Source: Caldimonas sp. (GTDB lineage Bacteria; Pseudomonadota; Gammaproteobacteria; Burkholderiales; Burkholderiaceae_C). From it: a stretch of 64,000 bases of DNA. This document shows, in pieces, positions 19,223-33,644 of the stretch; position 1 is the stretch's first letter, and every line of letters begins with the position of its first letter. The stretch is taken from positions 181,409 to 245,408 of the forward strand of contig CBDFFO010000010.1 of the NCBI GenBank assembly GCA_965246805.1. Direction: 5' to 3'. A program made the translations under genes and the position numbers. The notes beneath the pieces are model-generated. The model saw only the letters and a program-made list of their open reading frames with translations, had not been told where the DNA came from and searched no databases.

Positions 19223-19265
19223 GCGCCATGCCCCCGAGTGCGGCGCCCCGGCGCCGCGCTTGCCG

Positions 19266-19296: not shown

Positions 19297-19337
19297 AGCG
19301 CGCCAAGCCCGAGTCGGCCCTTCATTAAGATCGATAC

Positions 19338-20771: not shown

Positions 20772-21145
20772 GGGGCTGACCTGGCTTCGACGAGGGTTCG
20801 GAGTTGGAACAGTGCACGCCGAGCACCAGTTCGCTCGTAAATCCACTGGAAACAAAGTAACTGCGAACGATCAAACGTACGCTCTCGCCGCTTAAAACCG
20901 GTGAGCTTCGCAACAGTTGGCCGATGGGCTGGGTCTGAGGGGTAAAACCCGAAAGACTGCGAAGTCATACACATGGGCTCGTCCGGCGTCGCGTCATTCG
21001 GCGTCGGATCAAATCAAGTGAATCGGGATGACGGTAGCGTGCTGCTGCGCGACCGGCCTCCTTAAAACCAAATCAGTCAGCTAAGCGTGTAGATCTGCCT
21101 GACGATGGCTTTCGGACGGGGGTTCGATTCCCCCCAGCTCCACCA
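20772..21145 (+). ncRNA. ssrA: tmRNA (ssrA), tag peptide ANDQTYALAA at 20863-20895
   Basis: 5' GGGGCTGACCTGGCTTCGAC, 3' GGTTCGATTCCCCCCAGCTCCACCA, internal tag ORF ending ALAA-TAA. Confidence 0.97.
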
Positions 21146-21176
21146 GACTAGGTTCCGAACGGGAGCGCAAGTGACC

Positions 21177-21212
21177 AAGGCCCTAAGCAAATCAACGGCT
21201 TAGGGCCTTTTT
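21177..21212 (+). terminator. Rho-independent terminator downstream of ssrA
   Basis: AAGGCCCTAAGC-N9-GCTTAGGGCCTT followed by TTT. Confidence 0.85.
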
Positions 21213-21227
21213 CACGTCCACATGCGA

Positions 21228-21317
21228 CCGGGTAACAGCGCTTGCATCTTGCTGCGGACCGGGTAACATACCGGGTAACTCATCTCATGCGGCCTTAGGC
21301 GGCAGAAAGTTACCCGG
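21228..21317. repeat. Left-end integrase arm-type repeats CCGGGTAAC
   Basis: Direct copies at 21228, 21259 and 21271; inverted copy GTTACCCGG at 21309-21317. Confidence 0.75.
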
Positions 21318-22615
21318 TGGCAGCGACAGACATCTTGAGCGACAAGGCAGTCAAGGCGGCGCTGAAAGCGGCCGTCGTGGGTGGCAAGACGCGCAAGATC
21401 AGCGACGGCGGCGGCCTCTATCTGGAAACCCGCCCGACCGGCGCGGGCTGGTGGCGCCTTCGGTACTGGATCGACAGCCGCGAGGGGATGCTCAGCCTGG
21501 GCACCTACCCGGCGGTCACGCTCGCCGAGGCCCGCGAGCGCCGTGACGAGGCGAAGCGCCTGATCGCCTCGGGCGTCAACCCGAGCGACGCACGGAAAGA
21601 CGACAAGGCTCGCCGCGATCACCAGCGCAAGACTTTCGCGATGGCCGAGGCAGGCTTGGCCGTCACCGGCTCATTCGAACAGGTCGCCCGCGATTGGCTC
21701 ACGACAGTTCATGAGTCGAAGGTGAGCGCGGGACATGCCGAGCGCACCCGGATCCGCTTGGAGCAAGACGTTTTCCCGTGGCTCGGCAAGCGACCCATCA
21801 ACGAGATCGAGGCGCCGGAGCTGCTGGCCTGCCTTCGCCGTGTAGAAGCTCGCGGCGCCATCGAGACTGCCCACCGCATCAAGGACGCCTGCGGCCAGGT
21901 GTTCCGCTACGGCATCGCGACTGGTGCGTGCCAGAGAAACCCCGCCGCCGACCTACGCGATGCGCTCCGCCCGGTGGAGACACGGCACCTCGCTGCGATC
22001 GTCGAGCCGGTGAAGGCGGGCGCATTGCTGCGCGACATGGTCGGCTACGAGGGCCACCCTGTAACGCGCGTGGCGCTGGCGCTGTCGGCGCTGCTGCTGC
22101 TGCGCCCGGGAGAGCTGCGGAACATGGAGTGGGCTTGGGTGAACTTCGACTCATCGACCCTGACCGTCCCTGCGGAGGTCATGAAGCGTTCGAAGGCCGA
22201 CAAGGCCGGCGGCCCGCCGCACCTCGTGCCCCTCGCACCGCAGGCCGTGGCGCTGCTGCGCGATCTCCAGCCGCTAACCGGGCATGGCCGGTACGTCTTC
22301 CCGTCGCTGCTCACCGGCGAGCGCTGCATGAGCGAGAACACGGTGAGGAGTGCTCTGCGCCGCATGGGTTACAGCAACGACGACATGACCGCACATGGCT
22401 TCCGCGCAATGGCCCGCACCATGATCGCGGAACGATTGAACGTGGGGCCTGAAGTCATCGAGGCGCAGCTAGCGCACACGGTATCTGACTCGCTTGGCCG
22501 GGCCTACAACCGCACGCAGTACCTCGACCAACGCCGCGAAATGATGTCGACCTGGGCTGACTATCTCGACCGCCTACGCGCTGGCGCGCAAGTGGTGCCG
22601 CTCATGGTCGCCTGA
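21317..22615 (+). CDS. int: P4-like tyrosine integrase with arm-DNA-binding domain
   Basis: N-terminal DGGGLYL...W.LRY...LSLGTYP.VTLAEAR; catalytic R (LLRPGE), HGFR, QLAH, AYN. Confidence 0.95.
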   Translation: MAATDILSDKAVKAALKAAVVGGKTRKISDGGGLYLETRPTGAGWWRLRYWIDSREGMLSLGTYPAVTLAEARERRDEAKRLIASGVNPSDARKDDKARRDHQRKTFAMAEAGLAVTGSFEQVARDWLTTVHESKVSAGHAERTRIRLEQDVFPWLGKRPINEIEAPELLACLRRVEARGAIETAHRIKDACGQVFRYGIATGACQRNPAADLRDALRPVETRHLAAIVEPVKAGALLRDMVGYEGHPVTRVALALSALLLLRPGELRNMEWAWVNFDSSTLTVPAEVMKRSKADKAGGPPHLVPLAPQAVALLRDLQPLTGHGRYVFPSLLTGERCMSENTVRSALRRMGYSNDDMTAHGFRAMARTMIAERLNVGPEVIEAQLAHTVSDSLGRAYNRTQYLDQRREMMSTWADYLDRLRAGAQVVPLMVA

Positions 22616-22716
22616 AGAACCCGCGCTGCCCGGTAGGCAGCAAGTCGGCCGAGCCAGGTGCAGTAACACCTGACCCGACCTAACCACAACGTGCAAACCT
22701 GAAAGGACCGCACACC

Positions 22717-22908
22717 ATGGCTACTTCTCACTTTAACTGCTGGGCCACCGTGCCCGGAGGCGCGATCAAGCGCTTGGATGTTTATGCGTGCTGCCAGCGC
22801 GACGCACTGCGGCTGGCTTTCGATGCCGTGCCAGGGGCGGTCTGCATGAGCTGTCGTGAAACCGAAGTCGATGCATTCGTGGGTCAACCTTCGAGGAGCG
22901 GCAAATGA
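22717..22908 (+). CDS. Small hypothetical protein (63 aa)
   Basis: Possible RBS (AGGA) upstream; stop overlaps the next start (ATGA). Confidence 0.5.
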   Translation: MATSHFNCWATVPGGAIKRLDVYACCQRDALRLAFDAVPGAVCMSCRETEVDAFVGQPSRSGK

Positions 22909-23231
22909 CTGCAACAACCAACGCGACTACGAAGAACTCTTTTGAAGTCGACATCGACAGTTGCTACTTGATCCGATCCGAGGCCGACATCGACAAGGCG
23001 CCGGCTTTGATCATCAATCCCGAAGCGTCCGACCTGCGGCTGATATCTGCTGCCATGCGTCGCGCAGACGGCATCCAGAAGATGCTCGACGCGTGGTCGC
23101 GGATGGAGGATGGGAACGTTCAAGTGCGCGAGGTGACATGTGTTCTGGAGCCGATCGCACAGGAGGTGATGCTTCTGTTGGACGCCGCCACCGATCGCAT
23201 GTTCAAGAAGGCTCAAGAGGCGAAGGCATGA
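22905..23231 (+). CDS. Hypothetical protein (108 aa)
   Basis: ATGA overlaps on both sides; plausible helical protein. Confidence 0.6.
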   Translation: MTATTNATTKNSFEVDIDSCYLIRSEADIDKAPALIINPEASDLRLISAAMRRADGIQKMLDAWSRMEDGNVQVREVTCVLEPIAQEVMLLLDAATDRMFKKAQEAKA

Positions 23232-23578
23232 GCGCCGTCATCGAGTACCCGGAAGGCACGGTGGCCGTCCTTTCGACCACACCGGTGAGCGGTATCCGCA
23301 TGTTGAGCGGCCGGACCTGCACCTACCCCCCTGCGATCGATGCCCGCGACCTCGTCGAGGTTGACTTTGACGTGCGCGGCGCGGGAACGGGGGGCGGCCT
23401 GTATCTGGTCGAGGTTCAAGGAGCCAAAGCAGGCATATGCCGGAGGTTCATCACCACCCCTCACGGCCTCGAAGTCGACCGTACGGGCAATGGCGATTGG
23501 CAGTTCATAGATCTCGACGCGGTGGGCTGGCGAATCGTCGGCTTGGTGCGGCAGGTCTACAAGCCTGCCGGCACGTAA
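23228..23578 (+). CDS. Stand-alone S24/CI C-terminal-like domain protein with no HTH
   Basis: Pattern AIDARDLVEVDF...GGLYLVEV...ICRRF...WRIVGLVRQV resembles the phage-repressor/LexA C-terminal domain. Confidence 0.55.
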   Translation: MSAVIEYPEGTVAVLSTTPVSGIRMLSGRTCTYPPAIDARDLVEVDFDVRGAGTGGGLYLVEVQGAKAGICRRFITTPHGLEVDRTGNGDWQFIDLDAVGWRIVGLVRQVYKPAGT

Positions 23579-23588
23579 CGCATCGTTT

Positions 23589-24377
23589 ATGAGCAGTCCA
23601 TCAAAGGCTCGCTGTGAGCTTTACGACATGGCTGGCTTCGCGCATAGATGCGTTGTCGATGCGGAAGTCACCTACGGTCAAAACGCCCTAAGAACAATTG
23701 CCTTCCCCACAGCGTTTACCCGGCCGTTCTCGCTTGCCGACCTTGTTGACGGAGCTGCCCCGTTCGAGAGCGGCGAGCGCCTAAACGGCACTCGCTCGGA
23801 GCGTTTTTTACAGCTGTACAAGTGGTTGCGTCAGTTCCCTGGTTACCAGGCCATAAGCGACCGGGCTTCGATTACATCGGCGTTGGGGTCGTTCCGAAGG
23901 GTTCAGCAAAAGCGTCGCGACGATCCCAAGTTCAGCGATGGGGCGGCTGATTTCCGTTTTTGGCGGTGCGCGGCTTTGGCTGTAGCAGCCGCCGATTTGA
24001 AATACATACGGCCACCAAATGCTGACCAGAGGAGGAAGGCGGTCAAGGCAATCGACGTATTGCTCAAGGTTGATTTGGAAGCAGCCGCTTTTGATGTTCT
24101 AGAGTCGGCAGGCGATGAAGATCGGCTCATCGCTCTCCTTCGAACTCTCAGAGGCTCACTGACATCAGTTGAACGACGGGATCGTTCGGACGACTTCAGT
24201 TCCGGTCGAGAGTTCGTCTTCAACCTCGCTTCGGTTTTAGATGACGCTTTCGGCTATGTCTCGCAAGCGATGGTGTGGCAGCTAGCCTCTCTGCACGATC
24301 GCATTCCAGATCAGAGCACGGTCGAAGACATCGTCAAGCGCATGAACCGGATGCATCGTTCTCGCAAAGAGGTCTAG
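23589..24377 (+). CDS. Hypothetical protein (262 aa), visibly lower GC
   Basis: Long ORF filling the gap before alpA; no recognisable motif. Confidence 0.65.
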   Translation: MSSPSKARCELYDMAGFAHRCVVDAEVTYGQNALRTIAFPTAFTRPFSLADLVDGAAPFESGERLNGTRSERFLQLYKWLRQFPGYQAISDRASITSALGSFRRVQQKRRDDPKFSDGAADFRFWRCAALAVAAADLKYIRPPNADQRRKAVKAIDVLLKVDLEAAAFDVLESAGDEDRLIALLRTLRGSLTSVERRDRSDDFSSGREFVFNLASVLDDAFGYVSQAMVWQLASLHDRIPDQSTVEDIVKRMNRMHRSRKEV

Positions 24378-24510
24378 CGGTAGCGGGGGGAGAAGCCGGG
24401 CGTAATTCGCGTGCGTTTGCCCCCCCGGTGAAAAGCATCGTTTATCGGCCGTGAAAGGTGACCCACCAGCGGCCACCCACCGGCCAAAGTCACTTCCATC
24501 GCAACTGCGC

Positions 24511-24849
24511 ATGGAGCCTCAAGTGAACCCAAGACGAGAACAGAACCCGGTCGTTCGGCCGGTGCCGACCCAGCTAGCAGACGTTGCGCTGCTCGACATC
24601 AACGACCTGCGAGCCGCGGTCAGGATGTCCGCAAGCTGGGTGCTGGAGGAAGTTCGGTCGGGTCGATTCCCGGCACCGGTGATTCGGCAGTCACGCTGCA
24701 CACGGTGGCGCGCCTCGGATGTCCGCGATTACCTGATCAAACGTGCGCAGACCGTCGACATAGCTGCGGCCGAGACGGTGACCGCTCGGGCGAAGAAGGC
24801 CAGCGCAGCGGCGCAGGTCAAGCGTGTCGCGGCAGCGGCCGAGCAGTGA
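24511..24849 (+). CDS. alpA: AlpA-family transcriptional regulator / excisionase
   Basis: DINDLRAAVRMSASWVLEEVRSGRFPAPV...RWRASDV. Start uncertain (24451 or 24511). Confidence 0.8.
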   Translation: MEPQVNPRREQNPVVRPVPTQLADVALLDINDLRAAVRMSASWVLEEVRSGRFPAPVIRQSRCTRWRASDVRDYLIKRAQTVDIAAAETVTARAKKASAAAQVKRVAAAAEQ

Positions 24850-24858
24850 AGGGGGCGA

Positions 24859-25030
24859 CATGCACCCCCAACTTCACGCCCGTCGGGCGGGCTCTATCAC
24901 GCCCCATAAAGACGAAAGGCCAGCCGTTTGCACCGGTGGCCCTTCGAGATTTCAACCAAAGACAAGTTCGAATTCTGGCCTTCAAGGCACCATCCGGCAA
25001 GTCTCCCTGCTGATAGGTGGTGCGGCATGA
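24859..25030 (+). CDS. Small phage-type hypothetical protein
   Basis: ORF ends ...IGGAA* with an ATGA overlap into the next ORF. Confidence 0.4.
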
Positions 25031-25194
25031 CGCCGGCCAAGCCGGCGGAGGCCTCGAAGCATCTGCATTCACTCCTGTTCGCACCCTGCACCTGTCGCTT
25101 GTCCGGTGGCGCCTTGTGCTTGGTGTGTCTGCGGTGGAGGCGGCACTATGGCCGCGTGCAGGTTCGCCGCCAGCTCTGGAGCATTGCCCGATGA
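25027..25194 (+). CDS. Small Cys-rich protein (CTC...CLVC), 55 aa
   Basis: ATGA overlaps at both ends; four Cys in a CxC/CxxC arrangement. Confidence 0.5.
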   Translation: MTPAKPAEASKHLHSLLFAPCTCRLSGGALCLVCLRWRRHYGRVQVRRQLWSIAR

Positions 25195-25622
25195 GCGGCG
25201 CAATCGATTTGCTGCTGTCAAGGCTGCCCGACCACAAGCCCACCGGCCGAGATCGCTGGCGTAGCGGATGCCCTGTCTGCGGCGGAAGCAGCAAGTCCGC
25301 GCTATCGATCGGCATCGGGGACACCGGAGCGGTCCTGGTCACTTGCTTCAAAGGGGGCTGCGGTCCGGACGAGATCGCGGGAGCGGTTGGACTTGTGATC
25401 GAGGATCTATTCCCGCCTCGTGAGGCCGCTGGTCGACCATTGGCCCGTCGCCGAATGATCAGCGACAGACAGGCGCTCGATCTGATGCACGAGGAATCCA
25501 ACTTGGTCTTCGTCGCCGCCGCCAACATCGGCAACGGTATCGAGCTCACCGATGTTGACCGTGCGCGCCTGCTGCAGGCCGCTGCGCGGATCGCTTACTT
25601 GCGCGAAGAGGTCATGTCTTGA
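25191..25622 (+). CDS. Primase-type zinc-binding domain protein
   Basis: WRSGCPVCGG...LSIG...VLVTCFKGGCG, typical of primase Zn-finger N-termini in satellites. Confidence 0.75.
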   Translation: MSGAIDLLLSRLPDHKPTGRDRWRSGCPVCGGSSKSALSIGIGDTGAVLVTCFKGGCGPDEIAGAVGLVIEDLFPPREAAGRPLARRRMISDRQALDLMHEESNLVFVAAANIGNGIELTDVDRARLLQAAARIAYLREEVMS

Positions 25623-26914
25623 GCCGCTACGCAAATGGTTCTGGCGCCGCTGCCGTTGATGGCGCGATCAAGGTCCGTGGTGGTGCGGCTCCGGTAGTTG
25701 CGCGACACCAAGGGGAGCCCACTGGGGAAGCGATCGCCGTTCGGCTGGTTCGAGGCGACACAGTGACGCTGGAGCCCGTGCGCTGGTTATGGCCGGGCTT
25801 CCTGCCCGCGGCCATGCTGACGATCTTGGGCGGCGCTCCGGGCTGTGGCAAGACCACCATCGCGCTGTCGCTCGCGGCCACCGTCAGCAGCGCCGGCACC
25901 TGGCCCGGTGGTGTGACTCGCGCAACGGCGGGCGACGTGCTCATCTGGAGCGGCGAGGATGCGCACCCGGTACTCGCCGCCCGTCTAGCAGCTATGGGCG
26001 CCGACATGAAGCGCGTTCATTTCATCGACGGCATTTCCGGCAGCGAGGGCGAGGCGTTCGACCCCGGCCGAGATATGCCCCTTCTTGAAGCGGCGGCTGT
26101 GCGGCTCGTGGCGCCACGGCTGCTGATCCTGGACCCCATCGTGTCGGCGGTCTCAGGCGACTCGCACAAAGGCGCCGAGGTGCGCAGATCGCTCCAGCCA
26201 GTGGTGGCCCTCGCCCAGCGGCTCGGGTGCGCCGTGGTGGGCGTTACGCACTTCAGCAAGGGCACAGCGGGCCGTGATCCAGCGGAACGCATCACCGGAA
26301 GCATCGCGTTCGCCGCCCTTGCGCGGCTGGTGCTCGTGGCCGCCAAGGTGCAAGCCGATGAGGGCGGAGAGCCGAAGCGCGTGCTGGTGCGGGCGAAGTC
26401 CAACATCGGGCCGGACGACGGCGGGTTCGCCTATTCGCTCGATCGGGTGATAGTGGCTCCCGAAGTCGAAGGGCAGCGAGTTCTGTGGCTGGAGGCGCTG
26501 GAGGGTTCGGCGCGTGATGTGCTCGCCGAAGCGGAAGCCAATCCCGAGGGCAACGAGGAATCGTCTGCGCTGGACGAGGCGATCGAGTTTCTCGAGTCCG
26601 AGCTGGCGTATGGGGCGAAGCCGGTGATGGAGATTTACCGGGAGGCGCGGAGGTCTGGGCACAGTGATCGAACTCTCAAGCGAGCCAAATTGCAGCTCAG
26701 CGTCGCATCACTCAAGGAAAAAGCGGGCTGGGTGTGGCATCTGCCGTCCAAGGGTGCCAAGGGTGCCAACAGTGCCAAGGAAACCAGGCATGAAGCACAC
26801 GGCCCCCTTGCCGAAAACTTCAAGGGTGCCAGCGAATCACCCCTTGGAACACTTGGCCCCCTTGGCCCCCTTGGCCCCCTTGGCCCCCTTGCCGATGATG
26901 GCGAGGTGTTCTGA
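25619..26914 (+). CDS. AAA_25/RepA-like RecA-fold replicative helicase
   Basis: EPVRWLWPG, Walker A GAPGCGKT, Walker B LLILDP, HFSKG, R..GSIAF..LAR, KSNIG. Confidence 0.88.
   Translation: MSRYANGSGAAAVDGAIKVRGGAAPVVARHQGEPTGEAIAVRLVRGDTVTLEPVRWLWPGFLPAAMLTILGGAPGCGKTTIALSLAATVSSAGTWPGGVTRATAGDVLIWSGEDAHPVLAARLAAMGADMKRVHFIDGISGSEGEAFDPGRDMPLLEAAAVRLVAPRLLILDPIVSAVSGDSHKGAEVRRSLQPVVALAQRLGCAVVGVTHFSKGTAGRDPAERITGSIAFAALARLVLVAAKVQADEGGEPKRVLVRAKSNIGPDDGGFAYSLDRVIVAPEVEGQRVLWLEALEGSARDVLAEAEANPEGNEESSALDEAIEFLESELAYGAKPVMEIYREARRSGHSDRTLKRAKLQLSVASLKEKAGWVWHLPSKGAKGANSAKETRHEAHGPLAENFKGASESPLGTLGPLGPLGPLGPLADDGEVF
26748..26893. repeat. Inverted arrays of 9-bp repeats (putative iterons/ori)
   Basis: About 4 copies of CCAAGGGTG on + (26748-26780) facing 6 copies of CCCCTTGGC (26840-26893; reverse complement GCCAAGGGG). 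Confidence 0.7.
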
Positions 26915-27387: not shown

Positions 27388-27399
27388 CGCGACAGCCCC

Positions 27400-27681
27400 A
27401 TGCCTAGCGTCAACCGCCCCCGCATCGACTGGATGCCCGGCAAAGCCGCCCAAGCCGCCTTGCGAACGGCCGAACAGCGACGCCCGGATCTGCGTCAACA
27501 AGCGCTGATCGACTGGATCGTCATCGTCGGCGTGTCCGCGATCGAGCACCATCCCTGGTGTCCCCCCGCTCTGCATGGCCGCAACCGTGACACCTGGATC
27601 GCACGGCCCGCCGCACTCCCGGTAGACAGCTGCGCCACGCATACCGAAAAGCGAAAGGCACCGGGAACGGACACGAGCTGA
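27400..27681 (+). CDS. Hypothetical protein (93 aa)
   Basis: ORF in the same operon direction; no motif recognised. Confidence 0.45.
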   Translation: MPSVNRPRIDWMPGKAAQAALRTAEQRRPDLRQQALIDWIVIVGVSAIEHHPWCPPALHGRNRDTWIARPAALPVDSCATHTEKRKAPGTDTS

Positions 27682-27730
27682 AGGTCGCCCGTCGACATTG
27701 CTCCGCATTCACCCACGTTGCGGAGCGCAT

Positions 27731-27931
27731 ATGCAGACACACGAAGCCGAACCACTGCTCAAGCCCGAGCAGGTCGCGCAACGACTTGCGATCGCGGAGA
27801 GCACTCTGAACGTCTGGCGCTGTACCGGTCGTCAGCAACTTCCCTTCATCAAGCTCGGTTCGAGCGTCCGCTACCGCGCTTCGGACGTGGACGCATTTGT
27901 CGAGAGCCGTTTGCATGACGCCCGCGTCTGA
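27731..27931 (+). CDS. HTH_17/MerR-like excisionase-type DNA-binding protein
   Basis: LLKPEQVAQRLAIAESTLNVWR...LPFIKLGSSVRYRASDVDAF. Confidence 0.85.
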   Translation: MQTHEAEPLLKPEQVAQRLAIAESTLNVWRCTGRQQLPFIKLGSSVRYRASDVDAFVESRLHDARV

Positions 27932-28514
27932 GATTGGGCGCTCCGAAGACGGGCGTTCCAAAGTTGAACTCGTGACCGCTGGGGTGGACGTCGCTCCGGT
28001 CCTCTGGGCGTTGCGAGCGAATCCTGGTCTATGGACTCATGCCGAGACCGCCAAAGGTCGGGCCACTCCACGTTACGACGCGATCTGGGTCCGCTCCGCT
28101 GCCATGGGTTCGGATATCGGGACGCCAACAGAATCGAACTGGTACCCCACGGCTGACGCGGTGCCCCTGCGCGAACTGGTCTACCCCCTGATGGGCCTTG
28201 TCGGGGGCGTCCTGTTGGGGGGCGTCGTGATCCACAAGGTTCCTGCCCACACGACGACCAAGCCCCACATCGCAACAGGTCAGCAGGGCCGCTGCTTTGA
28301 CACGTTCGCGATCCAGATCGATTGCGCGCCCGGCCAGCTTCTCTGCTACGAGGACAGGCGACAGGAATCAAAGCCCGGTGACGCGTACTACTTCAACGAC
28401 TCGTATCGGCACTGGATAGAAAACCCGACGCCGTTTGACCGCATCACGGCGCTGGTCTCGATCCGGACCGAGCGCAAGGCCAACGCCGGACGACCGGCTC
28501 CGGTTTGTCACTGA
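27915..28514 (+). CDS. Aspartyl/asparaginyl beta-hydroxylase-like (2OG-Fe cupin) phage-type protein
   Basis: GVDVAPVLWAL, DAIWVR, LGGVVI.KVP...KPH, FAIQI, PGDAYYFN...HWIEN...DRIT. Confidence 0.7.
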   Translation: MTPASEIGRSEDGRSKVELVTAGVDVAPVLWALRANPGLWTHAETAKGRATPRYDAIWVRSAAMGSDIGTPTESNWYPTADAVPLRELVYPLMGLVGGVLLGGVVIHKVPAHTTTKPHIATGQQGRCFDTFAIQIDCAPGQLLCYEDRRQESKPGDAYYFNDSYRHWIENPTPFDRITALVSIRTERKANAGRPAPVCH

Positions 28515-28951
28515 TGAACATCGTGATCCACGAGAGCTTCGCCAAGCTCACGGGCATGAAGGCGACTCGGTTCGAGCGGCGCGAAAAGATCGCCCACGCT
28601 GAAACCGAGGCCAGAGCGCTGGCGGTGATGTTTCCCTTCGAGGAAACCGCCGAGCACCACTTCGCACCTGGCTTGTACGCACGCTCGCTCTTCATGCCAG
28701 CTGGCTCGACCGTCGTCGGGAAGATCCATCGGCACGCGCACATCTATGTCGTGTCGGGCCATTGCTGGATCTACAACGAGATCGACGAGCACGAGGTGAA
28801 AGGCTTTGAAGTTCGCACCGCCGTACCTGGCGAGAAGCGCTTCTGGCATGTGCTTGCTGACACATTCATCGTGGGCTTCCATCCCACGACCGAGACCGAT
28901 CTGGAAAAGATCGAAAACGACGTGATCGCTAAGACTTACGAGGTGATGTAA
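28514..28951 (+). CDS. Phage-type cupin-fold protein
   Basis: HHFAPGLYARSLFMPAGSTVVGKIHRHAH, a motif that I recall precedes ejection genes in podoviruses; TGATG coupling. Confidence 0.7.
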   Translation: MNIVIHESFAKLTGMKATRFERREKIAHAETEARALAVMFPFEETAEHHFAPGLYARSLFMPAGSTVVGKIHRHAHIYVVSGHCWIYNEIDEHEVKGFEVRTAVPGEKRFWHVLADTFIVGFHPTTETDLEKIENDVIAKTYEVM

Positions 28952-30115
28952 ATGTGGGTTGCCGTAGGAGTAGGGGCTGCCAGCACGGTGGCCGGCATGA
29001 TTGGCGCCAGCAAGGCCGCCAAAGGTCAACAGCAGGCCGCCAATCAGGCCATCGCGGCCCAGCAGGCCCAGTACCAGCAGAACCGCACCGACAACCTACC
29101 CGCGCTCGATGCCCGCAACAACTCACTGATGATGTTGCAGCAGAAGGCCGGCCAGTACAGCGCAGCCCCGACCGCCGACCAAGTGATGGCGACCCCGGGT
29201 TACCAGTTCGGGCTGAACCAGGGCAACAACAACATCGAGAACAGCGCCGCATCCCGAGGCGGCCTGTACTCGGGTGCGGCCGGCAAAGCACTGACCCGCT
29301 ATGGCACTGACTACGCAACGACGAAGTATCAGAACGCCTTCGACAACCTTCAGACCTCGCAGACCAACGACTTCAACCACTATCTGAACATCGGCAACCT
29401 GGGCCAAGCCGGCGCTAGCAGCATCGCCAACGCTGGCCAGAACATGGTCAACGCGAACAATCAGACCTTGATGAGCAATGCGAACTCTCAAGGCGCCGCC
29501 AACATCGCCCAGAGCAACCTCATTGCTGGCGGGCTGAACCAGTTCGGGAGCTGGGCCAAGTCCCCCAACGGGCAAGACGCACTTGGTGGTCTCGGCGATC
29601 GCATCGGCGGGTGGTTCGCACCTTCCAACAGCAACGGCAGCGTGATCTCCAACTCGCCGACCTACATCGACCCCAGTAGCAAGTACGCGCAGAACGGATC
29701 GGACTTCGGCTGGAATCCGATCAAGCGTGCCGATGGTGGACCCGTGCGAGCTGAGCCAGTAGTCGGATCGCGGTCCCCTGTCCGGACGGGTGGAGGCGGT
29801 GGCTTCTCCCCCAATGCCCTGCTCGCGCTGGTGATGGCTCATCAGCTCCCGCAAACTCAAACAGCACCAGGCGGCGACTACCTCATGAACCCCGGTCAGA
29901 TCGTTGATCAGCGGATGCGGCAGGCCGGTGCATACGCCATGGGCGGCGCAGTGCATGGCCCTGGCGGTCCTCGGGACGACCTCATCCCGGCGCAGTTGTC
30001 ATCGGGCGAACACGTTTTCGATACCGCGTCGGTCGACGCCGTCGGTGGTGGCGACAACGAGGTCGGGCAGAACAGGCTGAACAAGCTTCGCGAGATCCTC
30101 AAAAACCGCCGCTGA
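28952..30115 (+). CDS. Podovirus-type DNA ejection/pilot (P22 gp7-like DNA transfer) protein with C-terminal extension
   Basis: Hydrophobic Gly/Ala N-terminus, Gln/Asn-rich body, PGYQFGLNQG...SAASRGGLYSGAAGKAL.RYG.DYA, C-terminal GGAVHGPGGPRDD.IPA.LS.GE.V. Confidence 0.7.
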   Translation: MWVAVGVGAASTVAGMIGASKAAKGQQQAANQAIAAQQAQYQQNRTDNLPALDARNNSLMMLQQKAGQYSAAPTADQVMATPGYQFGLNQGNNNIENSAASRGGLYSGAAGKALTRYGTDYATTKYQNAFDNLQTSQTNDFNHYLNIGNLGQAGASSIANAGQNMVNANNQTLMSNANSQGAANIAQSNLIAGGLNQFGSWAKSPNGQDALGGLGDRIGGWFAPSNSNGSVISNSPTYIDPSSKYAQNGSDFGWNPIKRADGGPVRAEPVVGSRSPVRTGGGGGFSPNALLALVMAHQLPQTQTAPGGDYLMNPGQIVDQRMRQAGAYAMGGAVHGPGGPRDDLIPAQLSSGEHVFDTASVDAVGGGDNEVGQNRLNKLREILKNRR

Positions 30116-30117
30116 AC

Positions 30118-30291
30118 ATGCCGACGATCGAAACGAGGCTCGCCAGGCTGGAGGCGCCGCACATCCAAACCGGGCCGGTGTTGATCATGGTGAGCGACGA
30201 ACGCACTCCAGAGCAGGAGCAGGAGATCAGGTCCGCCCGGGAAGCAGGTAGACCGATCGTCTTCGTGACGGCCATCGATTGGGATCTGTGA
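30118..30291 (+). CDS. Microprotein 1 (57 aa, MPTIETRLARLE...)
   Basis: Translated by hand (below the ORF-track cutoff); starts 2 nt after the previous stop. Confidence 0.6.
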   Translation: MPTIETRLARLEAPHIQTGPVLIMVSDERTPEQEQEIRSAREAGRPIVFVTAIDWDL

Positions 30292-30360
30292 GTCCCGGCA
30301 TGCAGCCTCCCACGGTGCAATGAGTTATCAGGTCGCCCTGATCGAGCAGATGAGGAACAG

Positions 30361-30777
30361 ATGAAAGAAGCCGGTCGGTTTCAGCCAGGCCAGAGTGGCA
30401 ATCCCAAAGGGCGACCACCGGGCGCCGGTCAGCTGGGCACCTTGCGCGCGTCGATCGTGGCACACGTCCCCGAGATCGTGGCCAGGCTGGTTGACGCTGC
30501 GAAGGCCGGTGATGTTGGCGCTGCACGCCTGCTCCTAGAGCGCGTGTTGCCCGCTGTGAAGCCGATCGAGCAGGAAGTCGTGATCGCGTTGCCTACGGGC
30601 TCCCTGACCGATCAAGGTCGAGCCGTGCTCGCCGCCGCTGGCGCTGGCGAACTGGCAACGGGACAAGCCGCCCAGCTGCTGACCGGCCTGAGTTCGCTCG
30701 CCAAGCTGGTGGAGACGGACGAACTGGCAGCACGCATCAAGGCACTGGAGACCCGCGATGGCAACGTTAAGAGCTAG
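30361..30777 (+). CDS. DUF5681-type terminase-small-subunit-like protein
   Basis: GRFQPGQSGNPKGRP motif, AARLLLERVLP; RBS GAGGA upstream. Confidence 0.75.
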   Translation: MKEAGRFQPGQSGNPKGRPPGAGQLGTLRASIVAHVPEIVARLVDAAKAGDVGAARLLLERVLPAVKPIEQEVVIALPTGSLTDQGRAVLAAAGAGELATGQAAQLLTGLSSLAKLVETDELAARIKALETRDGNVKS

Positions 30778-30934
30778 GCTCGAAGAGCTGGAGCAGCAGC
30801 GCGTGTACGGTGACGTGCGGGACATGCCGACACACGAACTCGAACGACTCCTCGTGCTGCACTATGGGTACCTACCGGATGTGAGCGAGTTGCAGCGAAT
30901 CGTCGAGCAGGACAGAGCAAATGGCGACGCTTGA
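30758..30934 (+). CDS. Microprotein 2 (58 aa, MATLRARLEELE...)
   Basis: Translated by hand; overlaps both neighbouring genes. Confidence 0.55.
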   Translation: MATLRARLEELEQQRVYGDVRDMPTHELERLLVLHYGYLPDVSELQRIVEQDRANGDA

Positions 30935-31166
30935 CAAGCGGCTTCAGGAGCTGGAAAAGGCAACCTCGCCAGCCGTGCGGTTCACCATGATCGTTTGCAA
31001 GATCATCGACGTGGGGCGACTGGGCGAGGAGGGAACCCGGTGTGCCTTCGGCGACCGGGAATGGCGACGGGCTCATGACGAGTCTGAAGAGCAGTTCCTT
31101 GGCCGCGTGCAAGCGCAGATCGAATCGCCGAACCGCTTGCCGCGGGTCTTGCTTTACTCAAGCTGA
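30921..31166 (+). CDS. Microprotein 3 (81 aa, MATLDKRLQELE...)
   Basis: ORF track; N-terminus resembles those of microproteins 1 and 2. Confidence 0.6.
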   Translation: MATLDKRLQELEKATSPAVRFTMIVCKIIDVGRLGEEGTRCAFGDREWRRAHDESEEQFLGRVQAQIESPNRLPRVLLYSS

Positions 31167-31199
31167 AATGAGTGCCTGGCGGGTTCTTGCCGGATGCGC

Positions 31200-31818
31200 C
31201 TACTTTGTGATCAAACCTGTTTTTGGAAATTCCATAGGCCCAGTTTTCGGGTCGAAGATGCCGTAAGTGACTACCTTTGCTTTCTCGAACTGGTAGAAGG
31301 TGTTGTACTTGTCGAAGCTCAAGATTTTCTGCAGCCCGTCTTGCGTTGTCGAGACGTGCGATGGCTCACCAAGAACCTGGATTACGTACCCAATTTCCAT
31401 GTCCTTTTTAAAGTCCTGCAAATAGGGGTGAACCGTTTCTTCGTCGAGCGCCATATATTCGACGTACCTGACGTTGTCCCCTCTAAACCGAACAACGATG
31501 AAGGACTTGGTGTCGGCAGACCTATAGATCCATTCGTCCTTGTTATCTTCCGGAATTATCGACGGTTCGCCTTTGGCAAACCTCACGTCAGACCGGCTCG
31601 CGTGGAGCGGAACGTCGAAGAAAGTGATCTGAGGTCTGGGCCGCCCAGCGTACTGGACATACCCCCAAGTGCCAAGGCCTCCGAAAGCCGCGACTAAGAG
31701 CAGCGCGAGGATCATCCTTGCCAAGTCGGCTCCAGTTCCAACGATCCTTGGTCACCGCATACAGCATCACGATGGCCAAGACGACCGATGACATGAAGAT
31801 TCCAGAGCCTATGGTCAT
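31200..31818 (-). pseudogene. Membrane-anchored hypothetical protein split by a frameshift near 31722
   Basis: Frame A MTIGSGIFMSSVVLAIVMLYAVTKDRWNWSR continues naturally into frame B (L)ARMILALLLVAAFGGLGTWGYVQY...; one extra base at the junction. Confidence 0.6.
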
Positions 31819-31950
31819 TTGGGGATCCCGTTCACGATGGGCGAGCTACCTGTGCGCACGAATATCCGTTCGCCCCATACGTCGCGTTTGTGATTCAGAT
31901 GGCCGCCGACAACTCGCTCTTCCCCACTGCGCGTCGTCGTGCAGGGATCA

Positions 31951-32478
31951 CTAAGAAAACCTCTTAAACAACAGACACCCTAAGACAAAGACTACGGGGG
32001 ACAGCAATAGGGCGACGCGAACTAAGTTGATCGCCAAAGCCTTTTTCGCGATCCAGTCACTGCTGTCCTTCAGGCGGTCTGTAATGTTGAGTATTTCGCC
32101 ATAGCGCACTTCGTCGATTGACCGGTGCGGTTCATCTAGAAGGTTTGCAGCCTCTTGGTATGGCGCCGGGTACTCGCGAATGAAGAATGTCTTCCAGACC
32201 AGTAGTAGTCCGAGCAACACAAAGTACCCGCAGAGAACGATCGTGCCGAACAACAGCGTGTCTAGCGTGCGTTCAAGCCCAGGCAATATGTAGACGAACG
32301 TGCCTCCCATACCGGCCAAAACATAGGTCAACGTGGTTTGAGCTTCTTTGCCCATGTTGTCTGCCGTGGTGAACTTCTCCTGCAGGTTCTTGAGGCCGTT
32401 CTCTTCCGCCCACTTGAGTCTGTCCGGCCAGCTCTCATGCCGAGTCCTCACGGTTCGATAGCTTGTCCGCTGTGCCAT
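31951..32478 (-). CDS. 3-TM membrane protein, lower GC (candidate defence effector)
   Basis: Three hydrophobic segments; ADNMGKEAQTTLTY before TM1; acidic loop before TM3. Confidence 0.7.
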   Translation of the reverse strand: MAQRTSYRTVRTRHESWPDRLKWAEENGLKNLQEKFTTADNMGKEAQTTLTYVLAGMGGTFVYILPGLERTLDTLLFGTIVLCGYFVLLGLLLVWKTFFIREYPAPYQEAANLLDEPHRSIDEVRYGEILNITDRLKDSSDWIAKKALAINLVRVALLLSPVVFVLGCLLFKRFS

Positions 32479-32483
32479 AGCTG

Positions 32484-32612
32484 CTAAGCCTTTTTGATTG
32501 CCTTCTTCGTCTTCCCAGGTTGCTTGGGTCTGTAGACCCCTTCGGTCGACTTCTTTGCCGGTGCCTTTCTGGCCACCGACTTCTTGGCTGGCGCTTTCTT
32601 TGCGGGTGCCAT
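32484..32612 (-). CDS. 42-aa Lys-rich histone-H1-like microprotein (MAPAKKAPAKKSVARKAPAKK...)
   Basis: Translated by hand; AAGGAAG RBS upstream; stop lies 5 nt before the 3-TM gene start. Confidence 0.6.
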   Translation of the reverse strand: MAPAKKAPAKKSVARKAPAKKSTEGVYRPKQPGKTKKAIKKA

Positions 32613-32801
32613 CTAGGTCTTCCTTGTCGGAGTTTCGTGCTTCACTGTCCGCGCGGGCTGCCGCGGGCGAAAAGGCGCCGGAGGCGGGGATGATGGAGGG
32701 GTGGGGGCGGTCGCGGCACTGTGCATCTGTGTTCCTTTTAAGGCGTGGCTGATGTCATGCGCGCAAATACATCCACATGCGCACATCATGCAGAGAGACG
32801 A

Positions 32802-32819
32802 TACTGTATAAACGTCCAG
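32802..32819 (+). promoter_or_regulatory. Putative LexA (SOS) box
   Basis: TACTGTATAAACGTCCAG = CTG-N10-CAG with the canonical TACTGTATA half-site, directly before GTG 32820. Confidence 0.65.
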
Positions 32820-33263
32820 GTGGACTTCTTGGTTACGCGAGTTTTCGACGGAGGCAGGGTGATGCCCGGCCACATCCGGAATGCCACGACCGTACGCGGC
32901 CGACTGTCGGTCGCCCAGGAGGAAGATGCGCTGCGGCGCCGGACCGTCCTCGTGGCTCGCTTCACCCCGGCCAAAGGGAACGGAACGTTAATGCAGAGGC
33001 TGCCCCCGCTTTACGACGTGCAGTTGATCTCGCTGAATGGTGAGGTGATGACGCTCGCCGGATATGAGCGTGTCGTGGCTGGAGTGCTGCAGCAGGACTA
33101 CGTGCTCGGGCAGAGCTGGATCGTCACGCCCGGCCCCATTGAAGACCTGATGCACGCCGAGGCGCAGTGGCGCGATGCAGCTGAAAAGATCGTCGAGCTT
33201 CAAGCACAATTGCAGACAGGAGAGGCGGCCCGAACTGGTTCACGCGTCGAGCCGCTTGGGTAA
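32820..33263 (+). CDS. Hypothetical protein, putatively SOS-regulated
   Basis: VDFLVTRVFDGG...LPPLYDVQLI...LAGYER...QSWIV; start inferred at GTG 32820. Confidence 0.6.
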   Translation: MDFLVTRVFDGGRVMPGHIRNATTVRGRLSVAQEEDALRRRTVLVARFTPAKGNGTLMQRLPPLYDVQLISLNGEVMTLAGYERVVAGVLQQDYVLGQSWIVTPGPIEDLMHAEAQWRDAAEKIVELQAQLQTGEAARTGSRVEPLG

Positions 33264-33276
33264 CTTTCCGGGTAAC
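33256..33276 (+). repeat. Right-end arm-type repeats (TTGGGTAAC, CCGGGTAAC)
   Basis: Two copies with a 12-bp period, the same period as the left pair at 21259/21271. Confidence 0.75.
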
Positions 33277-33338
33277 TGGGAAGGTGGCAAACCAGCAGAG
33301 GTAGCATCCATGCGGGTTTGCGGCCGAACTTCAAGTGA

Positions 33339-33352
33339 CCCCAGCCCACCAG
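33339..33352 (+). repeat. attR: degenerate copy of the ssrA 3' end
   Basis: CCCCAGCCCACCAG versus CCCCAGCTCCACCAG, preceded by a T-loop-like TTCAAGT. Confidence 0.75.
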
Positions 33353-33644
33353 TATTAGTGCGACGTAGGTCACCGACGTCAGGTTTTGCAAGTCAAATCG
33401 CCGACTTCGCGGCTCTTGAATTTCAAAAAGCGCTGCGTCGGCATCGACCTGAAAGTTCAGGTTGTCCATCGCCGCGAGGGTACGAGGACGGGTTGCTTGC
33501 AACGCTTCCGCCTTGTAGACAATGGACCCGCTCCAGGGGTGCTTGGTCATCGGTGGCGCGCCGTCGGGCGGCGACTCGGCGGCTGCGGCCCAGTGCAGCC
33601 TCTCAAGATTGCCAGACCTGCCGCGACCAAGCCCGCATCCGCCG

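What the first reader, a model, noticed from the sequence alone, without database searches (positions are those of the whole stretch)
21132..33352. Capsid-less phage satellite in tmRNA with a packaging/ejection module of unusual composition
Seen: att repeats and arm repeats delimit 12.2 kb carrying int, alpA, a primase Zn finger, an AAA helicase, HTH_17 and a DUF5681 TerS-like gene, all on one strand, with no capsid, portal, TerL, tail or lysis gene. Established: this backbone is typical of PICI/P4-like satellites that parasitise helper phages. Inference: the late module (hydroxylase-like, cupin, ejection protein, three microproteins, TerS-like) does not match the hijack kits I know (Sid/Psu, CpmAB, Ppi/Rpp, cf-PICI capsids). 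It may define a satellite family that exploits podoviruses at the packaging and DNA-injection steps.
Basis: partly seen in the sequence, partly recalled or inferred. Interest (0 to 1): 0.85.

Follow-up and report, generated by a model that had tools for sequence, protein, structure and literature searches.

The report
Phage satellite carrying DNA-ejection genes
A 12.2-kb island inserted at the end of the tmRNA gene looks like a phage satellite: it has no capsid, portal or large terminase, but carries a lone small-terminase-like gene plus three virion and DNA-ejection genes copied from P22-like short-tailed phages, a hijacking kit I found described in no paper, though nothing about its function has been tested.

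Summary
An island at 21132-33352 lies between ssrA and an AcrB gene. It is bounded by a 14/15-nt copy of the tmRNA 3' end. All six GGGTAAC heptamers in the 64-kb window sit at its two ends.

It encodes:
- an arm-binding tyrosine integrase;
- two HTH_17/AlpA-like proteins;
- a Zn-ribbon protein and an AAA_25 helicase with inverted iteron arrays;
- a DUF5681 protein.

No capsid, portal, TerL or lysis gene was found.

Three adjacent genes (Asp/Asn-hydroxylase-like, metal cupin, first ejection protein) have their closest relatives (38-54% identity) only inside the virion modules of P22-like podoviruses.

Close DUF5681 homologues (50-76%) mark at least 44 small tRNA/tmRNA islands, nearly all in Burkholderiales. 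These carry an integrase and primase/helicase but never a TerL. In 80 viral contigs the distant DUF5681 homologue sits just upstream of a large ORF in 64 cases, and most of those ORFs are TerL.

Eight of the 44 islands carry ejection-protein genes. One (Piscinibacter) has the same backbone and the same slot, filled with a different three-gene set.

Best reading: a PICI-like satellite family with an orphan TerS and an exchangeable ejection-protein module. Two details of the finding are wrong: two cargo genes lie on the minus strand, and no catalytic primase domain is detectable. Mobilisation is untested. Novelty: new variant of a known kind.

The parts
20772..21145 (+). tmRNA gene (ssrA), the integration target. 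Its last ~14 nt are the attL core (21132-21146).
   Evidence: ARAGORN; core alignment
21230..21315 (.). Left arm-type sites: GGGTAAC at 21230, 21261 and 21273, and an inverted copy GTTACCC at 21309.
   Evidence: same pattern in L023 beside a 59%-identical integrase
21317..22615 (+). Tyrosine integrase with an arm-binding domain.
   Evidence: Pfam Arm-DNA-bind_3 1e-23, Phage_int_M 1e-36, Phage_integrase 1e-11
22905..24377 (+). Three ORFs of unknown function (108, 116 and 262 aa) between the integrase and the regulator. This is the usual accessory position in satellites.
   Evidence: no Pfam, PHROG, PADLOC or NCBIfam hit; the 116-aa ORF has a homologue in L035
24451..24849 (+). AlpA-like / excisionase-like HTH_17 protein (weak match).
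   Evidence: HTH_17 E 0.0014, below threshold; phrog_66 'excisionase and transcriptional regulator' 5e-6
25017..25622 (+). Zn-ribbon protein resembling the N-terminus of a primase. No catalytic primase domain was found. It always lies upstream of the helicase in relatives.
   Evidence: phrog_47 / phrog_6088 DNA primase, residues 62-134 only; no Pfam hit; homologues in L017, L018, L029, L034, L041
25619..26914 (+). RepA/DnaB-like AAA_25 replicative helicase.
   Evidence: AAA_25 6.5e-37; 13 PHROG families, most of those with a named function being primase/helicase; 44-50% identical in L012, L017, L029, L041
26747..26891 (.). Putative replication origin: inverted arrays of 9-nt iterons inside the 3' end of the helicase gene. 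(T)GCCAAGGG about 4 copies forward at 26747-26780; CCCCTTGGC 5.8 copies at 26840-26891.
   Evidence: TRF; sequence; CCAAGGG occurs 16 times against 4.7 expected, 6 of them here; analogous inverted arrays at the helicase 3' end in L029 and L041
26914..27681 (+). Two conserved backbone ORFs (157 aa and 93 aa) of unknown function.
   Evidence: the 157-aa ORF is 41% identical in L012 and L013, with a partial match in L021; the 93-aa ORF matches L012
27698..27931 (+). HTH_17 DNA-binding protein directly upstream of the virion-gene module. Candidate late activator or excisionase.
   Evidence: HTH_17 6e-9; phrog_66 4e-7; 50% identical and in the same position in L012
27897..28514 (+). Asp/Asn beta-hydroxylase-like (2OG-oxygenase/cupin fold) protein. 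It is an orthologue of the gene just upstream of the first ejection-protein gene in P22-like phage contigs.
   Evidence: 38-39% identical to L003, L009, L010; L009 and L010 orthologues pass the Pfam Asp_Arg_Hydrox threshold, the window protein gives E 0.022
28505..28951 (+). Small metal-binding monocupin. Phage homologues lie next to ejection-protein genes. PHROGs labels the family 'short tail fiber'.
   Evidence: phrog_12032 2e-25; 44% identical to L004; invariant H48, H72, H123; AF2 pLDDT 87.7 and 159 cupin matches in PDB
28952..30115 (+). First ejection (E) protein, the positional and sequence analogue of P22 gp7 / T7 gp14, full length, with a hydrophobic N-terminus.
   Evidence: phrog_598 'DNA ejection' 3e-29; 260 homologues, the closest at 41-54% identity all in P22-like virion modules; hydropathy
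30118..30291 (+). 57-aa ORF conserved between the ejection module and the DUF5681 gene.
   Evidence: 46% identical and in the same position in L012
30361..30777 (+). DUF5681 protein, all-helical: putative orphan small terminase (or Rpp-like packaging redirector). It is the hallmark gene of the island family.
   Evidence: Pfam 1e-11; 2597 homologues, the top ones 60-76% identical; island contexts; TerL follows it in viral contigs and in no island; AF2 model
30758..31166 (+). Two small overlapping ORFs (58 and 81 aa).
   Evidence: the 81-aa ORF is weakly conserved after the DUF5681 gene in L020
31200..33263 (.). Low-GC cargo segment: two minus-strand membrane or secreted proteins (31200-31724, 31951-32478) and a plus-strand 172-aa ORF (32745-33263).
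   Evidence: GC 0.55-0.57; hydrophobic segments; no PADLOC, NCBIfam or Pfam assignment
33258..33352 (.). Right arm-type sites (GGGTAAC at 33258 and 33270) and the attR core (33339-33352).

Best explanation
The island is an intact member of an undescribed, PICI-like family of phage satellites, found here almost only in Burkholderiales.

Shown by sequence:
- It sits in the 3' end of ssrA, flanked by an att core and six arm-type repeats for a tyrosine integrase with an arm-binding domain.
- From 24451 to 31166 it is one tightly packed plus-strand gene array.
- It has its own replication module: a Zn-ribbon protein, an AAA_25 helicase and inverted iterons inside the helicase 3' end.
- It has no capsid, portal, large terminase, tail or lysis gene.

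Inferred life cycle:
1. A P22-like podovirus of about 38-40 kb acts as helper.
2. On helper infection or induction, the HTH_17/AlpA-like proteins switch on excision and the late genes.
3. The element replicates from its iteron origin.
4. The orphan DUF5681 protein acts as a small terminase, or as an Rpp-like partner of the helper's small terminase. It steers the helper's large terminase onto satellite DNA. Since no capsid-size gene is present, the DNA is probably packed as about three copies per headful (12.2 kb x 3 = 37 kb).
5. The satellite also makes its own first ejection protein (the outer-membrane pore component of the ejectosome) and two cupin-fold enzymes that phages encode beside it. 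These would be built into the particles. Either satellite-carrying virions then deliver DNA with the satellite's own entry specificity, or helper progeny are spoiled.

The ejection module occupies an exchangeable slot between the HTH_17 gene and the 57-aa ORF/DUF5681 pair.
For: Boundaries and arm sites.

Backbone and absence of morphogenesis or lysis genes.

Tight packing with overlapping stops and starts.

Iterons, with analogous arrays in relatives.

The three virion genes are full length. Their closest relatives are exclusively in P22-like modules with the order portal, coat, gp10, small ORFs, cupin and/or hydroxylase, E1, E2, E3.

Family:
- The listed DUF5681 homologues are 60-76% identical, the named ones from Burkholderiales, out of 2597 hits.
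- 44 island contexts sit at many different tRNA genes.
- Recurrent Pfam families near the gene are integrase, AAA_25, PriCT_2, DUF3987 and Toprim_3, with no terminase, portal or capsid family among those listed.

TerS position: in 64 of 80 viral contigs the DUF5681-like ORF is directly followed by a large ORF. Among those 64, Terminase_6N matches 32 and Terminase_3 matches 26. One such contig also carries a P22-type portal. No TerL is present in any island.

Same slot, different content: the Piscinibacter island L012 has the same backbone genes (helicase 50%, 157-aa ORF 41%, HTH_17 50%, 57-aa ORF 46%, DUF5681 72%), but the slot holds three ejection proteins of another lineage. Ejection-protein genes occur in 8 of 44 islands.

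No published description was found.
Against: - No direct evidence of excision, replication, packaging or a helper. The runs that hold the element are contigs only, island depth roughly equals flank depth, and no attB or attP joint was seen.
- The TerS assignment is positional only. The AF2 model matches no solved TerS. The PDB sequence search was empty. There was no tblastn hit in 50,697 phage genomes. Most phage relatives share only the N-terminal ~60 residues.
- No catalytic primase domain was found.
- The att core is short and imperfect.
- Only 8 of 44 family members have ejection-protein genes, so the module is not needed for the family's life cycle.
- The window holds no helper prophage.
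Confidence: 0.62

Rival explanations
1. The island is a real satellite, but the hydroxylase-cupin-E1 block is passenger DNA picked up by recombination with a helper. It plays no part in the satellite's transfer, or it acts only to interfere with phages.
For: Only 8 of 44 islands carry ejection-protein genes, and minimal members such as L013 (about 6.5 kb) lack them. The window has only one of the three ejection proteins a podovirus needs. The block is a mosaic of two phage lineages.
Against: All three genes are full length and translationally coupled within the operon. The same slot is filled by ejection-protein genes in an independent island (L012). Ejection-protein genes recur next to DUF5681 in six further islands of different genera. 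Repeated independent capture argues for selection.
Confidence: 0.2
2. It is not a satellite. It is an integrative genomic island that replicates or persists on its own. Its DUF5681 protein is a regulator, and its phage-derived genes serve host defence, for example decoy ejection proteins or superinfection exclusion.
For: The DUF5681 fold search gave no TerS match. The cargo segment holds membrane proteins, as exclusion systems do. In P22, an inner-membrane exclusion protein acts on the ejection-protein conduit (PMC10461980).
Against: DUF5681-domain genes sit in the TerS position in most viral contigs examined. The combination of int, AlpA-like regulator, helicase and an orphan TerS-like gene is the satellite signature (PMC10085698). 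No PADLOC hit. No conjugation or relaxase genes.
Confidence: 0.13
3. It is a decayed remnant of a P22-like prophage left by deletions.
For: Three genes are syntenic with P22-like virion modules. The att core is imperfect.
Against: - Only 2.2 of 12.2 kb is phage-syntenic.
- The block sits upstream of the TerS-like gene, which is not the phage order.
- Hydroxylase and cupin are in the reverse order and come from different phage lineages.
- No pseudogenes or fragments of portal, coat, gp10 or E2/E3 are present.
- The backbone is conserved in 44 islands, none with TerL, portal or capsid.
- The operon is tightly packed and intact.
- There is no nucleotide match to any phage record.
Confidence: 0.05

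Closest known systems
PICIs of Gram-negative bacteria (e.g. EcCICFT073), as modelled in SatelliteFinder (PMC10085698)
   Same: A 10-15 kb island at a specific att site with an integrase, an AlpA-type regulator, a replication module with its own origin, a small-terminase-type packaging gene near the far end, accessory genes after it, and no capsid, tail or lysis genes.
   Different: No capsid-morphogenesis gene. The packaging gene is a DUF5681 protein that is unrelated by sequence to known PICI TerS or Rpp. The helicase is AAA_25 with a separate Zn-ribbon protein rather than a Pri-Rep fusion. The island carries virion genes (ejection protein, cupins), which PICIs 'typically do not encode'. The hosts are Burkholderiales.
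PICMI (Vibrionaceae minimalist satellites, PMC10803314)
   Same: A small island with int, AlpA/HTH_17 and a primase or helicase, no capsid-remodelling genes, and likely packaging as concatemers into full-size helper capsids. Minimal family members such as L013 (int, AlpA, Toprim_3, DUF3987) look alike.
   Different: PICMIs are defined by integration next to fis and a fis copy, and they lack any terS. This family has an orphan TerS-like gene, uses tRNA/tmRNA sites, and sometimes carries ejection-protein genes.
P4-like satellites
   Same: A tyrosine integrase of the Arm-DNA-bind_3 (P4-type) class, an AlpA-like regulator, a replication protein with iterons, about 11-12 kb in size, and tRNA-type integration.
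   Different: No Sid, Psu, Delta or Epsilon. No alpha primase-helicase. The inferred helper is a podovirus, not a P2-like myovirus.
Ejection-protein operon of P22-like podoviruses (P22 gp7/gp20/gp16; relatives such as Rhodoferax phage P26218, phage DSL-LC05, Ralstonia RSK1)
   Same: The 28952-30115 protein is a homologue of the first gene of that operon. The two preceding cupin-fold genes have phage homologues in the same relative position.
   Different: Here the genes lie outside any virion module, without gp10 upstream or the two large ejection proteins downstream, on an element with no capsid genes.

Membership tests
PICI (five core components, PMC10085698) | Integrase at one end, specific att site | tested here: met
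PICI | Regulation module (alpA, merR or stl homologue) | tested here: inconclusive
   Two HTH_17 proteins. One passes the Pfam threshold (27698-27931). The one upstream of the replication genes is sub-threshold, with a phrog_66 match at 5e-6. There is no PF05930 AlpA hit.
PICI | Primase-replicase module with origin | tested here: inconclusive
   An AAA_25 helicase, a Zn-ribbon protein and iterons are present. No catalytic primase domain was found.
PICI | Capsid morphogenesis gene (Proteobacterial PICIs) | tested here: not met
   No Pfam or PHROG match in any ORF.
PICI | Small terminase that redirects packaging | tested here: inconclusive
   The DUF5681 protein has positional evidence only. No structural or sequence match to solved TerS.
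PICI | No other phage structural or lysis genes (tail and holin profiles are forbidden components) | tested here: not met
   An ejection protein (phrog_598) and a protein in PHROG tail-fibre families are present. No holin or lysin.
PICI | Helper-induced excision, replication and packaging | not testable with these tools
   Only assembled contigs of metagenomic runs were available.
P4-like | psu-delta-sid operon, epsilon, alpha primase-helicase | tested here: not met
   No hits.
cf-PICI | Own capsid, portal, protease, head-tail connectors, TerL | tested here: not met
PICMI | Integration beside fis with a fis copy; int + AlpA + DUF3987/DUF5906 primase; no terS (PMC10803314) | tested here: not met
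   Integration is at ssrA. No Fis, DUF3987 or DUF5906 hit in the window. A TerS-like gene is present.
P22-like prophage | TerL, P22 portal, scaffold, coat, gp4/gp10, three ejection proteins, tailspike, lysis genes | tested here: not met
   Only the first ejection protein and two neighbouring genes are present.
DUF5681 island family proposed here | Small tRNA/tmRNA island with tyrosine integrase, primase/helicase, a DUF5681 gene at least 50% identical near one end, and no TerL, portal or capsid | tested here: met

The most novel reading that the evidence does not exclude
Satellites of this family supply parts, or in some members all three components, of the podovirus ejectosome, so that particles carrying satellite DNA enter cells with the satellite's own DNA-delivery specificity. 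This could let them evade injection-blocking exclusion or reach other recipients. Alternatively they sabotage helper progeny with mismatched ejection proteins. Either would be a hijacking step at DNA delivery that I found described for no satellite. Together with a new small-terminase family (DUF5681), it would reveal an abundant, unrecognised satellite lineage in environmental Betaproteobacteria.
Probability: 0.3. Interest if true: 0.85.

Novelty: new variant of a known kind. Interest (0 to 1): 0.64.

Why it matters
Known satellites act on capsid size, packaging specificity or helper gene expression. SatelliteFinder even treats tail and other structural genes as grounds to reject a candidate, so elements like this one are likely to be missed or discarded by the current PICI model.

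If the reading is right, it would:
- add a large satellite family in Burkholderiales, a group with few described satellites (putative PICIs were reported in Burkholderia, PMC10085698);
- give DUF5681 a function, as a small terminase or packaging redirector;
- point to DNA ejection as a step that satellites manipulate.

Ejection proteins are the targets of injection-blocking exclusion (SieA, PMC10461980), so the idea bears on host range and on gene flow in freshwater and soil bacteria.

Related islands exist in cultured strains (Piscinibacter koreensis, Variovorax boronicumulans DE0202, Limnohabitans sp. Hippo3), so the idea is directly testable.

Tried and rejected
- DUF5681 structure: the AF2 model (pLDDT 83, all helical) gave no significant PDB match and only weak, unnamed or DUF5681-labelled BFVD matches. 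The PDB sequence-profile search gave noise only.
- Comparison of the DUF5681 profile with the TerS-position protein of Rhodoferax phage P26218 found nothing. Against the TerS-position ORF of IMG/VR contig L011 it found only a 31-residue motif.
- tblastn of the DUF5681 protein against 50,697 phage genomes: no match.
- Single-protein scans of viral contigs with the helicase (no hit) and the DUF5681 protein (one weak hit).
- PADLOC, NCBIfam and Pfam on the unknown and cargo ORFs: nothing usable.
- Profile comparison of the cupin family with the hydroxylase-like protein: no detectable relation.
- Megablast of the whole island against the phage and plasmid collections: no match.
- Public runs: X1 and X2 (the same study) and X3 hold the element or relatives, but only as contigs. 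No excision joint could be read and depth is uninformative.
It was redone with database homologues.
- The PHROG label 'short tail fiber' for the cupin was considered and rejected: the fold and the invariant His/Glu residues are those of small metal cupins.
- The second ARAGORN call (permuted tmRNA, 21052-21654) was taken as a false positive overlapping the real tmRNA end and the start of the integrase gene.

Full report
**1. Observation**

ARAGORN finds a tmRNA gene at 20772-21145. Its last 15 nt, CCCCAGCTCCACCAG (21132-21146), recur as CCCCAGC-CCACCAG at 33339-33352. This is the only match to the tmRNA 3' end in the 24 kb downstream, and 4 of 500 shuffles reach its score.

The heptamer GGGTAAC (or its complement) occurs six times in the whole 64-kb window. 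All six lie at the island ends. Three direct copies and one inverted copy sit between the tmRNA and the integrase gene (21230, 21261, 21273, 21309). Two direct copies lie 65-90 nt inside attR (33258, 33270).

A Rubrivivax genome (L023) has an integrase 59% identical to this one. It shows the same three-direct-plus-one-inverted GGGTAAC pattern between a tRNA-Phe gene and that integrase. These are therefore conserved arm-type sites of this integrase lineage.

The flanks are ordinary host genes: OmpA-family, methyltransferase, HAD hydrolase and ssrA on the left, an AcrB-family pump on the right. The boundaries given in the finding are therefore right.

**2. Gene content**

Pfam and PHROG scans give the following.
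- Integrase, 21317-22615: Arm-DNA-bind_3, Phage_int_M, Phage_integrase.
- Three unknown ORFs, 22905-24377.
- A weak HTH_17 / excisionase-like protein, 24451-24849.
- A Zn-ribbon protein matching only the N-terminal part of phage primases, 25017-25622.
- An AAA_25 helicase, 25619-26914 (E 6.5e-37).
- Two conserved unknown ORFs, 26914-27681.
- A clear HTH_17 protein, 27698-27931.
- Three virion-type genes, 27897-30115.
- A 57-aa ORF, 30118-30291.
- A DUF5681 protein, 30361-30777.
- Two small ORFs, 30758-31166.

From 24451 to 31166 the genes are tightly packed, with gaps of -35 to +167 nt and several stop/start overlaps.

The last 2 kb has low GC (0.55-0.57). It holds two minus-strand genes for membrane or secreted proteins and one plus-strand ORF, none assignable to a family. 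So 'all on one strand' is not correct.

No catalytic primase domain was found either. No capsid, portal, TerL, tail-tube or lysis family was detected in the island. A panel of 67 diverse TerL sequences also found nothing anywhere in the window.

Inside the 3' end of the helicase gene there are two arrays of 9-nt repeats in opposite orientation. (T)GCCAAGGG occurs about four times at 26747-26780, and CCCCTTGGC 5.8 times at 26840-26891. CCAAGGG is over-represented in the window (16 against 4.7 expected), and six copies are here. Relatives with homologous helicases (L029, L041) have analogous inverted arrays of different sequence at the same place. I read this as the replication origin (inference).

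**3. The 'late module' is podovirus virion DNA**

The 387-aa protein matches phrog_598 'DNA ejection' and has 260 database homologues. Every context I examined for the closest ones (41-54% identity) is a P22-like structural module. The order is TerL, P22-type portal, scaffold, P22-type coat, gp10 (Phage_stabilise), two or three small ORFs, a cupin and/or an Asp/Asn-hydroxylase-like protein, this protein, two further large ejection proteins, then tailspikes and lysis genes. Several of these lie on 38-40 kb contigs.

Weaker homologues lie in the same place in isolated phages: Rhodoferax P26218, DSL-LC05, Vibrio VvAW1. By position and size of the conserved N-terminal part, it is the analogue of P22 gp7 / T7 gp14, the outer-membrane component of the ejectosome (background: PMC8954989). 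Its N-terminus is hydrophobic.

The 205-aa protein is 38-39% identical to the phage gene just upstream of the ejection-protein gene in L003, L009 and L010. Two of those orthologues pass the Pfam threshold for Asp_Arg_Hydrox, while the window protein itself is sub-threshold.

The 148-aa protein is 44% identical to the corresponding gene in L004. PHROGs calls its family 'short tail fiber'. However, an alignment of 44 homologues has invariant His48, His72 and His123, and near-invariant His74, His76 and Glu89. The AF2 model (pLDDT 87.7) matches 159 PDB chains at E <= 0.001, and the listed top matches are nearly all small metal cupins such as KdgF, TcmJ-like proteins and TM1459. 'Cupin' is right and 'tail fibre' is not supported.

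All three genes are full length relative to their phage orthologues. The island has the order hydroxylase-cupin-E1, whereas the phages have cupin-hydroxylase-E1 or cupin-E1. The best matches of the two cupin-fold genes come from different phage lineages. The block is therefore a mosaic, not a simple deletion product.

**4. The island belongs to a large family marked by the DUF5681 gene**

The DUF5681 protein has 2597 homologues. The best are 60-76% identical and come from Burkholderiales such as Piscinibacter, Variovorax and Roseateles.

Contexts:
- Variovorax PBL-E5 has a 6.5-kb island at tRNA-Pro with int, AlpA, a Toprim_3 primase, a DUF3987 helicase, a homologue of the 157-aa ORF, DUF5681 and a 60-aa ORF.
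- Roseateles has int, DUF5681, AAA_25 and HNH genes at tRNA-Arg.
- Piscinibacter koreensis (L012) has the same backbone as the window: helicase 50%, 157-aa ORF 41%, HTH_17 50%, 57-aa ORF 46% and DUF5681 72% identical. The slot between HTH_17 and the 57-aa ORF holds three large proteins. The first shares the E1 domain, and the third is 54% identical to the third ejection protein of phage contig L004.

A scan of one genome per species returned 40 more loci. Almost all are from Burkholderiales and Nitrosomonadales, with two from Gammaproteobacteria. They sit next to many different tRNA genes.

Among 90 ORFs of at least 290 aa lying from 6 kb upstream to 2.6 kb downstream of these genes, the recurrent Pfam families are Phage_integrase (15), AAA_25 (12), Arm-DNA-bind_3 (12), Phage_int_M (8), PriCT_2 (5), DUF3987 (2) and Toprim_3 (2). 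No terminase, portal or capsid family is among those listed. No TerL was found by phmmer.

Ejection-protein homologues lie beside the DUF5681 gene in L012, L019, L020, L023, L025, L043 and L046. With the window, that makes 8 of 44.

**5. Is DUF5681 a small terminase?**

Direct tests failed. There was no PDB sequence or fold match, only weak BFVD matches, and no tblastn hit in 50,697 phage genomes.

Positional evidence is strong. A profile scan of IMG/VR gave 80 contigs with distant relatives at 27-46% identity, most sharing the N-terminal ~60 residues that make up the Pfam domain. In 64 of them an ORF of at least 300 aa follows directly. Pfam finds Terminase_6N in 32 of those ORFs and Terminase_3 in 26, with a few in other TerL families. 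Several of the best full-length matches lie next to TerL, and one contig also carries a P22-type portal.

So DUF5681-domain proteins occupy the TerS position in phages, while the island subfamily is always an orphan. That is the pattern of packaging-redirecting satellites: a TerS in SaPIs, or a TerS-like Rpp in E. coli PICIs (those two examples are from my own knowledge).

**6. Mechanism**

Shown by sequence: site-specific integration apparatus; an autonomous replication module; an orphan TerS-position gene; intact podovirus ejection and cupin genes in a conserved slot.

Inferred:
- Induction by a P22-like helper, acting through the HTH_17 proteins.
- Replication from the iteron origin.
- Redirection of the helper TerL by the DUF5681 protein.
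- Headful packaging of about three copies into full-size capsids. 12.2 kb is roughly one third of the 38-40 kb helper-type contigs, and no capsid-size gene is present; PICMI sets a precedent (PMC10803314).
- Incorporation of the satellite's ejection protein into particles.

Why carry ejection proteins? They are among the most variable virion proteins (PMC8954989). They are also the determinants of sensitivity to the injection-blocking exclusion protein SieA in P22 (PMC10461980). A satellite that brings its own could change entry specificity or spoil helper progeny. This last step is speculative.

**7. Rivals**

A decayed prophage is unlikely:
- Only 2.2 of 12.2 kb is phage-syntenic.
- The order is not collinear with the phages.
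- There are no gene fragments.
- The backbone is conserved in 44 islands.
- The operon is intact.
- There is no nucleotide match to any phage record.

A non-satellite defence island cannot be excluded, because the TerS function is not proven. The ejection block could also be non-functional passenger DNA in a real satellite, but its recurrence in eight islands, in the same slot in two of them, argues for selection.

**8. Comparison and novelty**

By the SatelliteFinder description (PMC10085698), PICIs have five core components and exclude tail and holin genes. Here the integrase is met. The regulator, the replication module and TerS are met only in a loose or inferred sense. The capsid-morphogenesis gene is absent, and structural genes are present.

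It is not P4-like, cf-PICI, PLE or PICMI. Full-text searches found no paper linking DUF5681 to terminases or satellites, and none describing satellites with ejection-protein genes. I therefore class it as a new variant of a known kind: a PICI-like satellite with a new packaging gene family and a new type of accessory hijack module.

**9. Limits**

Everything functional is inferred. The window comes from a metagenome-assembled contig. The public runs that hold it are stored as contigs and show neither attB nor attP. One other study (run X3) holds contigs 85-88% identical to the integrase, replication genes, HTH and cupin/E1 start, so close relatives exist, but I could not read them.

Noticed in passing
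window 26747-26891: Two inverted arrays of 9-nt repeats (GCCAAGGG motif) lie inside the coding 3' end of the helicase gene, where they encode a GPLGPLGPLGPL tail. This is a probable iteron origin. Relatives L029 and L041 have analogous arrays with different sequence.
   Followed up: partly
window 31200-33263: A low-GC (0.55-0.57) cargo segment holds two minus-strand membrane or secreted proteins (174 and 175 aa) and a 172-aa plus-strand ORF. No family or defence-system match. It could be an exclusion or defence cargo.
   Followed up: partly
window 21052-21654: ARAGORN reports a second, permuted 'tmRNA*' that overlaps the real tmRNA end and the start of the integrase gene. This is almost certainly a false call.
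   Followed up: no
window 33200-33550 (minus strand): A 116-aa ORF runs across attR from host DNA into the island. It has no family match. It may be a host gene whose end was replaced by the insertion, or it may be spurious.
   Followed up: no
window 28952-30115, residues ~318-369: The C-terminal ~50 residues of the ejection protein (GGPRDDLIPAQLSSGEHVF...) match short segments of several tape-measure-protein PHROGs (6090, 25241, 5448). This is a conserved motif of unknown role shared by proteins that leave the virion.
   Followed up: no
L138 (Polynucleobacter sp. UK-Kesae-W10) 7965-20522: The closest cupin homologue (57% identical) lies in a prophage-like region beside a 2OG-Fe(II) oxygenase, a glucosaminidase and a 3477-aa polyvalent protein (InPase, ART-PolyVal). 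Cupin and oxygenase genes therefore seem to accompany injected proteins in several phage types.
   Followed up: no
L023 (Rubrivivax sp. 5N023) 14907-19972: In this relative the three ejection-protein genes lie about 4.5 kb downstream of the DUF5681 gene rather than upstream, followed by a homologue of the 102-aa ORF of L012. It may be a rearranged or tandem (composite) island.
   Followed up: no
run X3, laid on window 21119-29945: A metagenome from a different study holds 6-13 kb contigs 85-88% identical to the integrase, Zn-ribbon/helicase, HTH and cupin/E1-start regions. These are close relatives of this island that are absent from the protein database searched.
   Followed up: partly
PHROG families 12032 and 24280: These families are labelled 'short tail fiber' and 'tail fiber adhesin', but the member studied here is a small metal-binding cupin by conserved residues and predicted fold. 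The labels look like propagated misannotation.
   Followed up: yes
window 40000-44000: A second stretch of lower GC (0.63-0.65) and strong positive GC skew lies outside the island. It was not examined.
   Followed up: no
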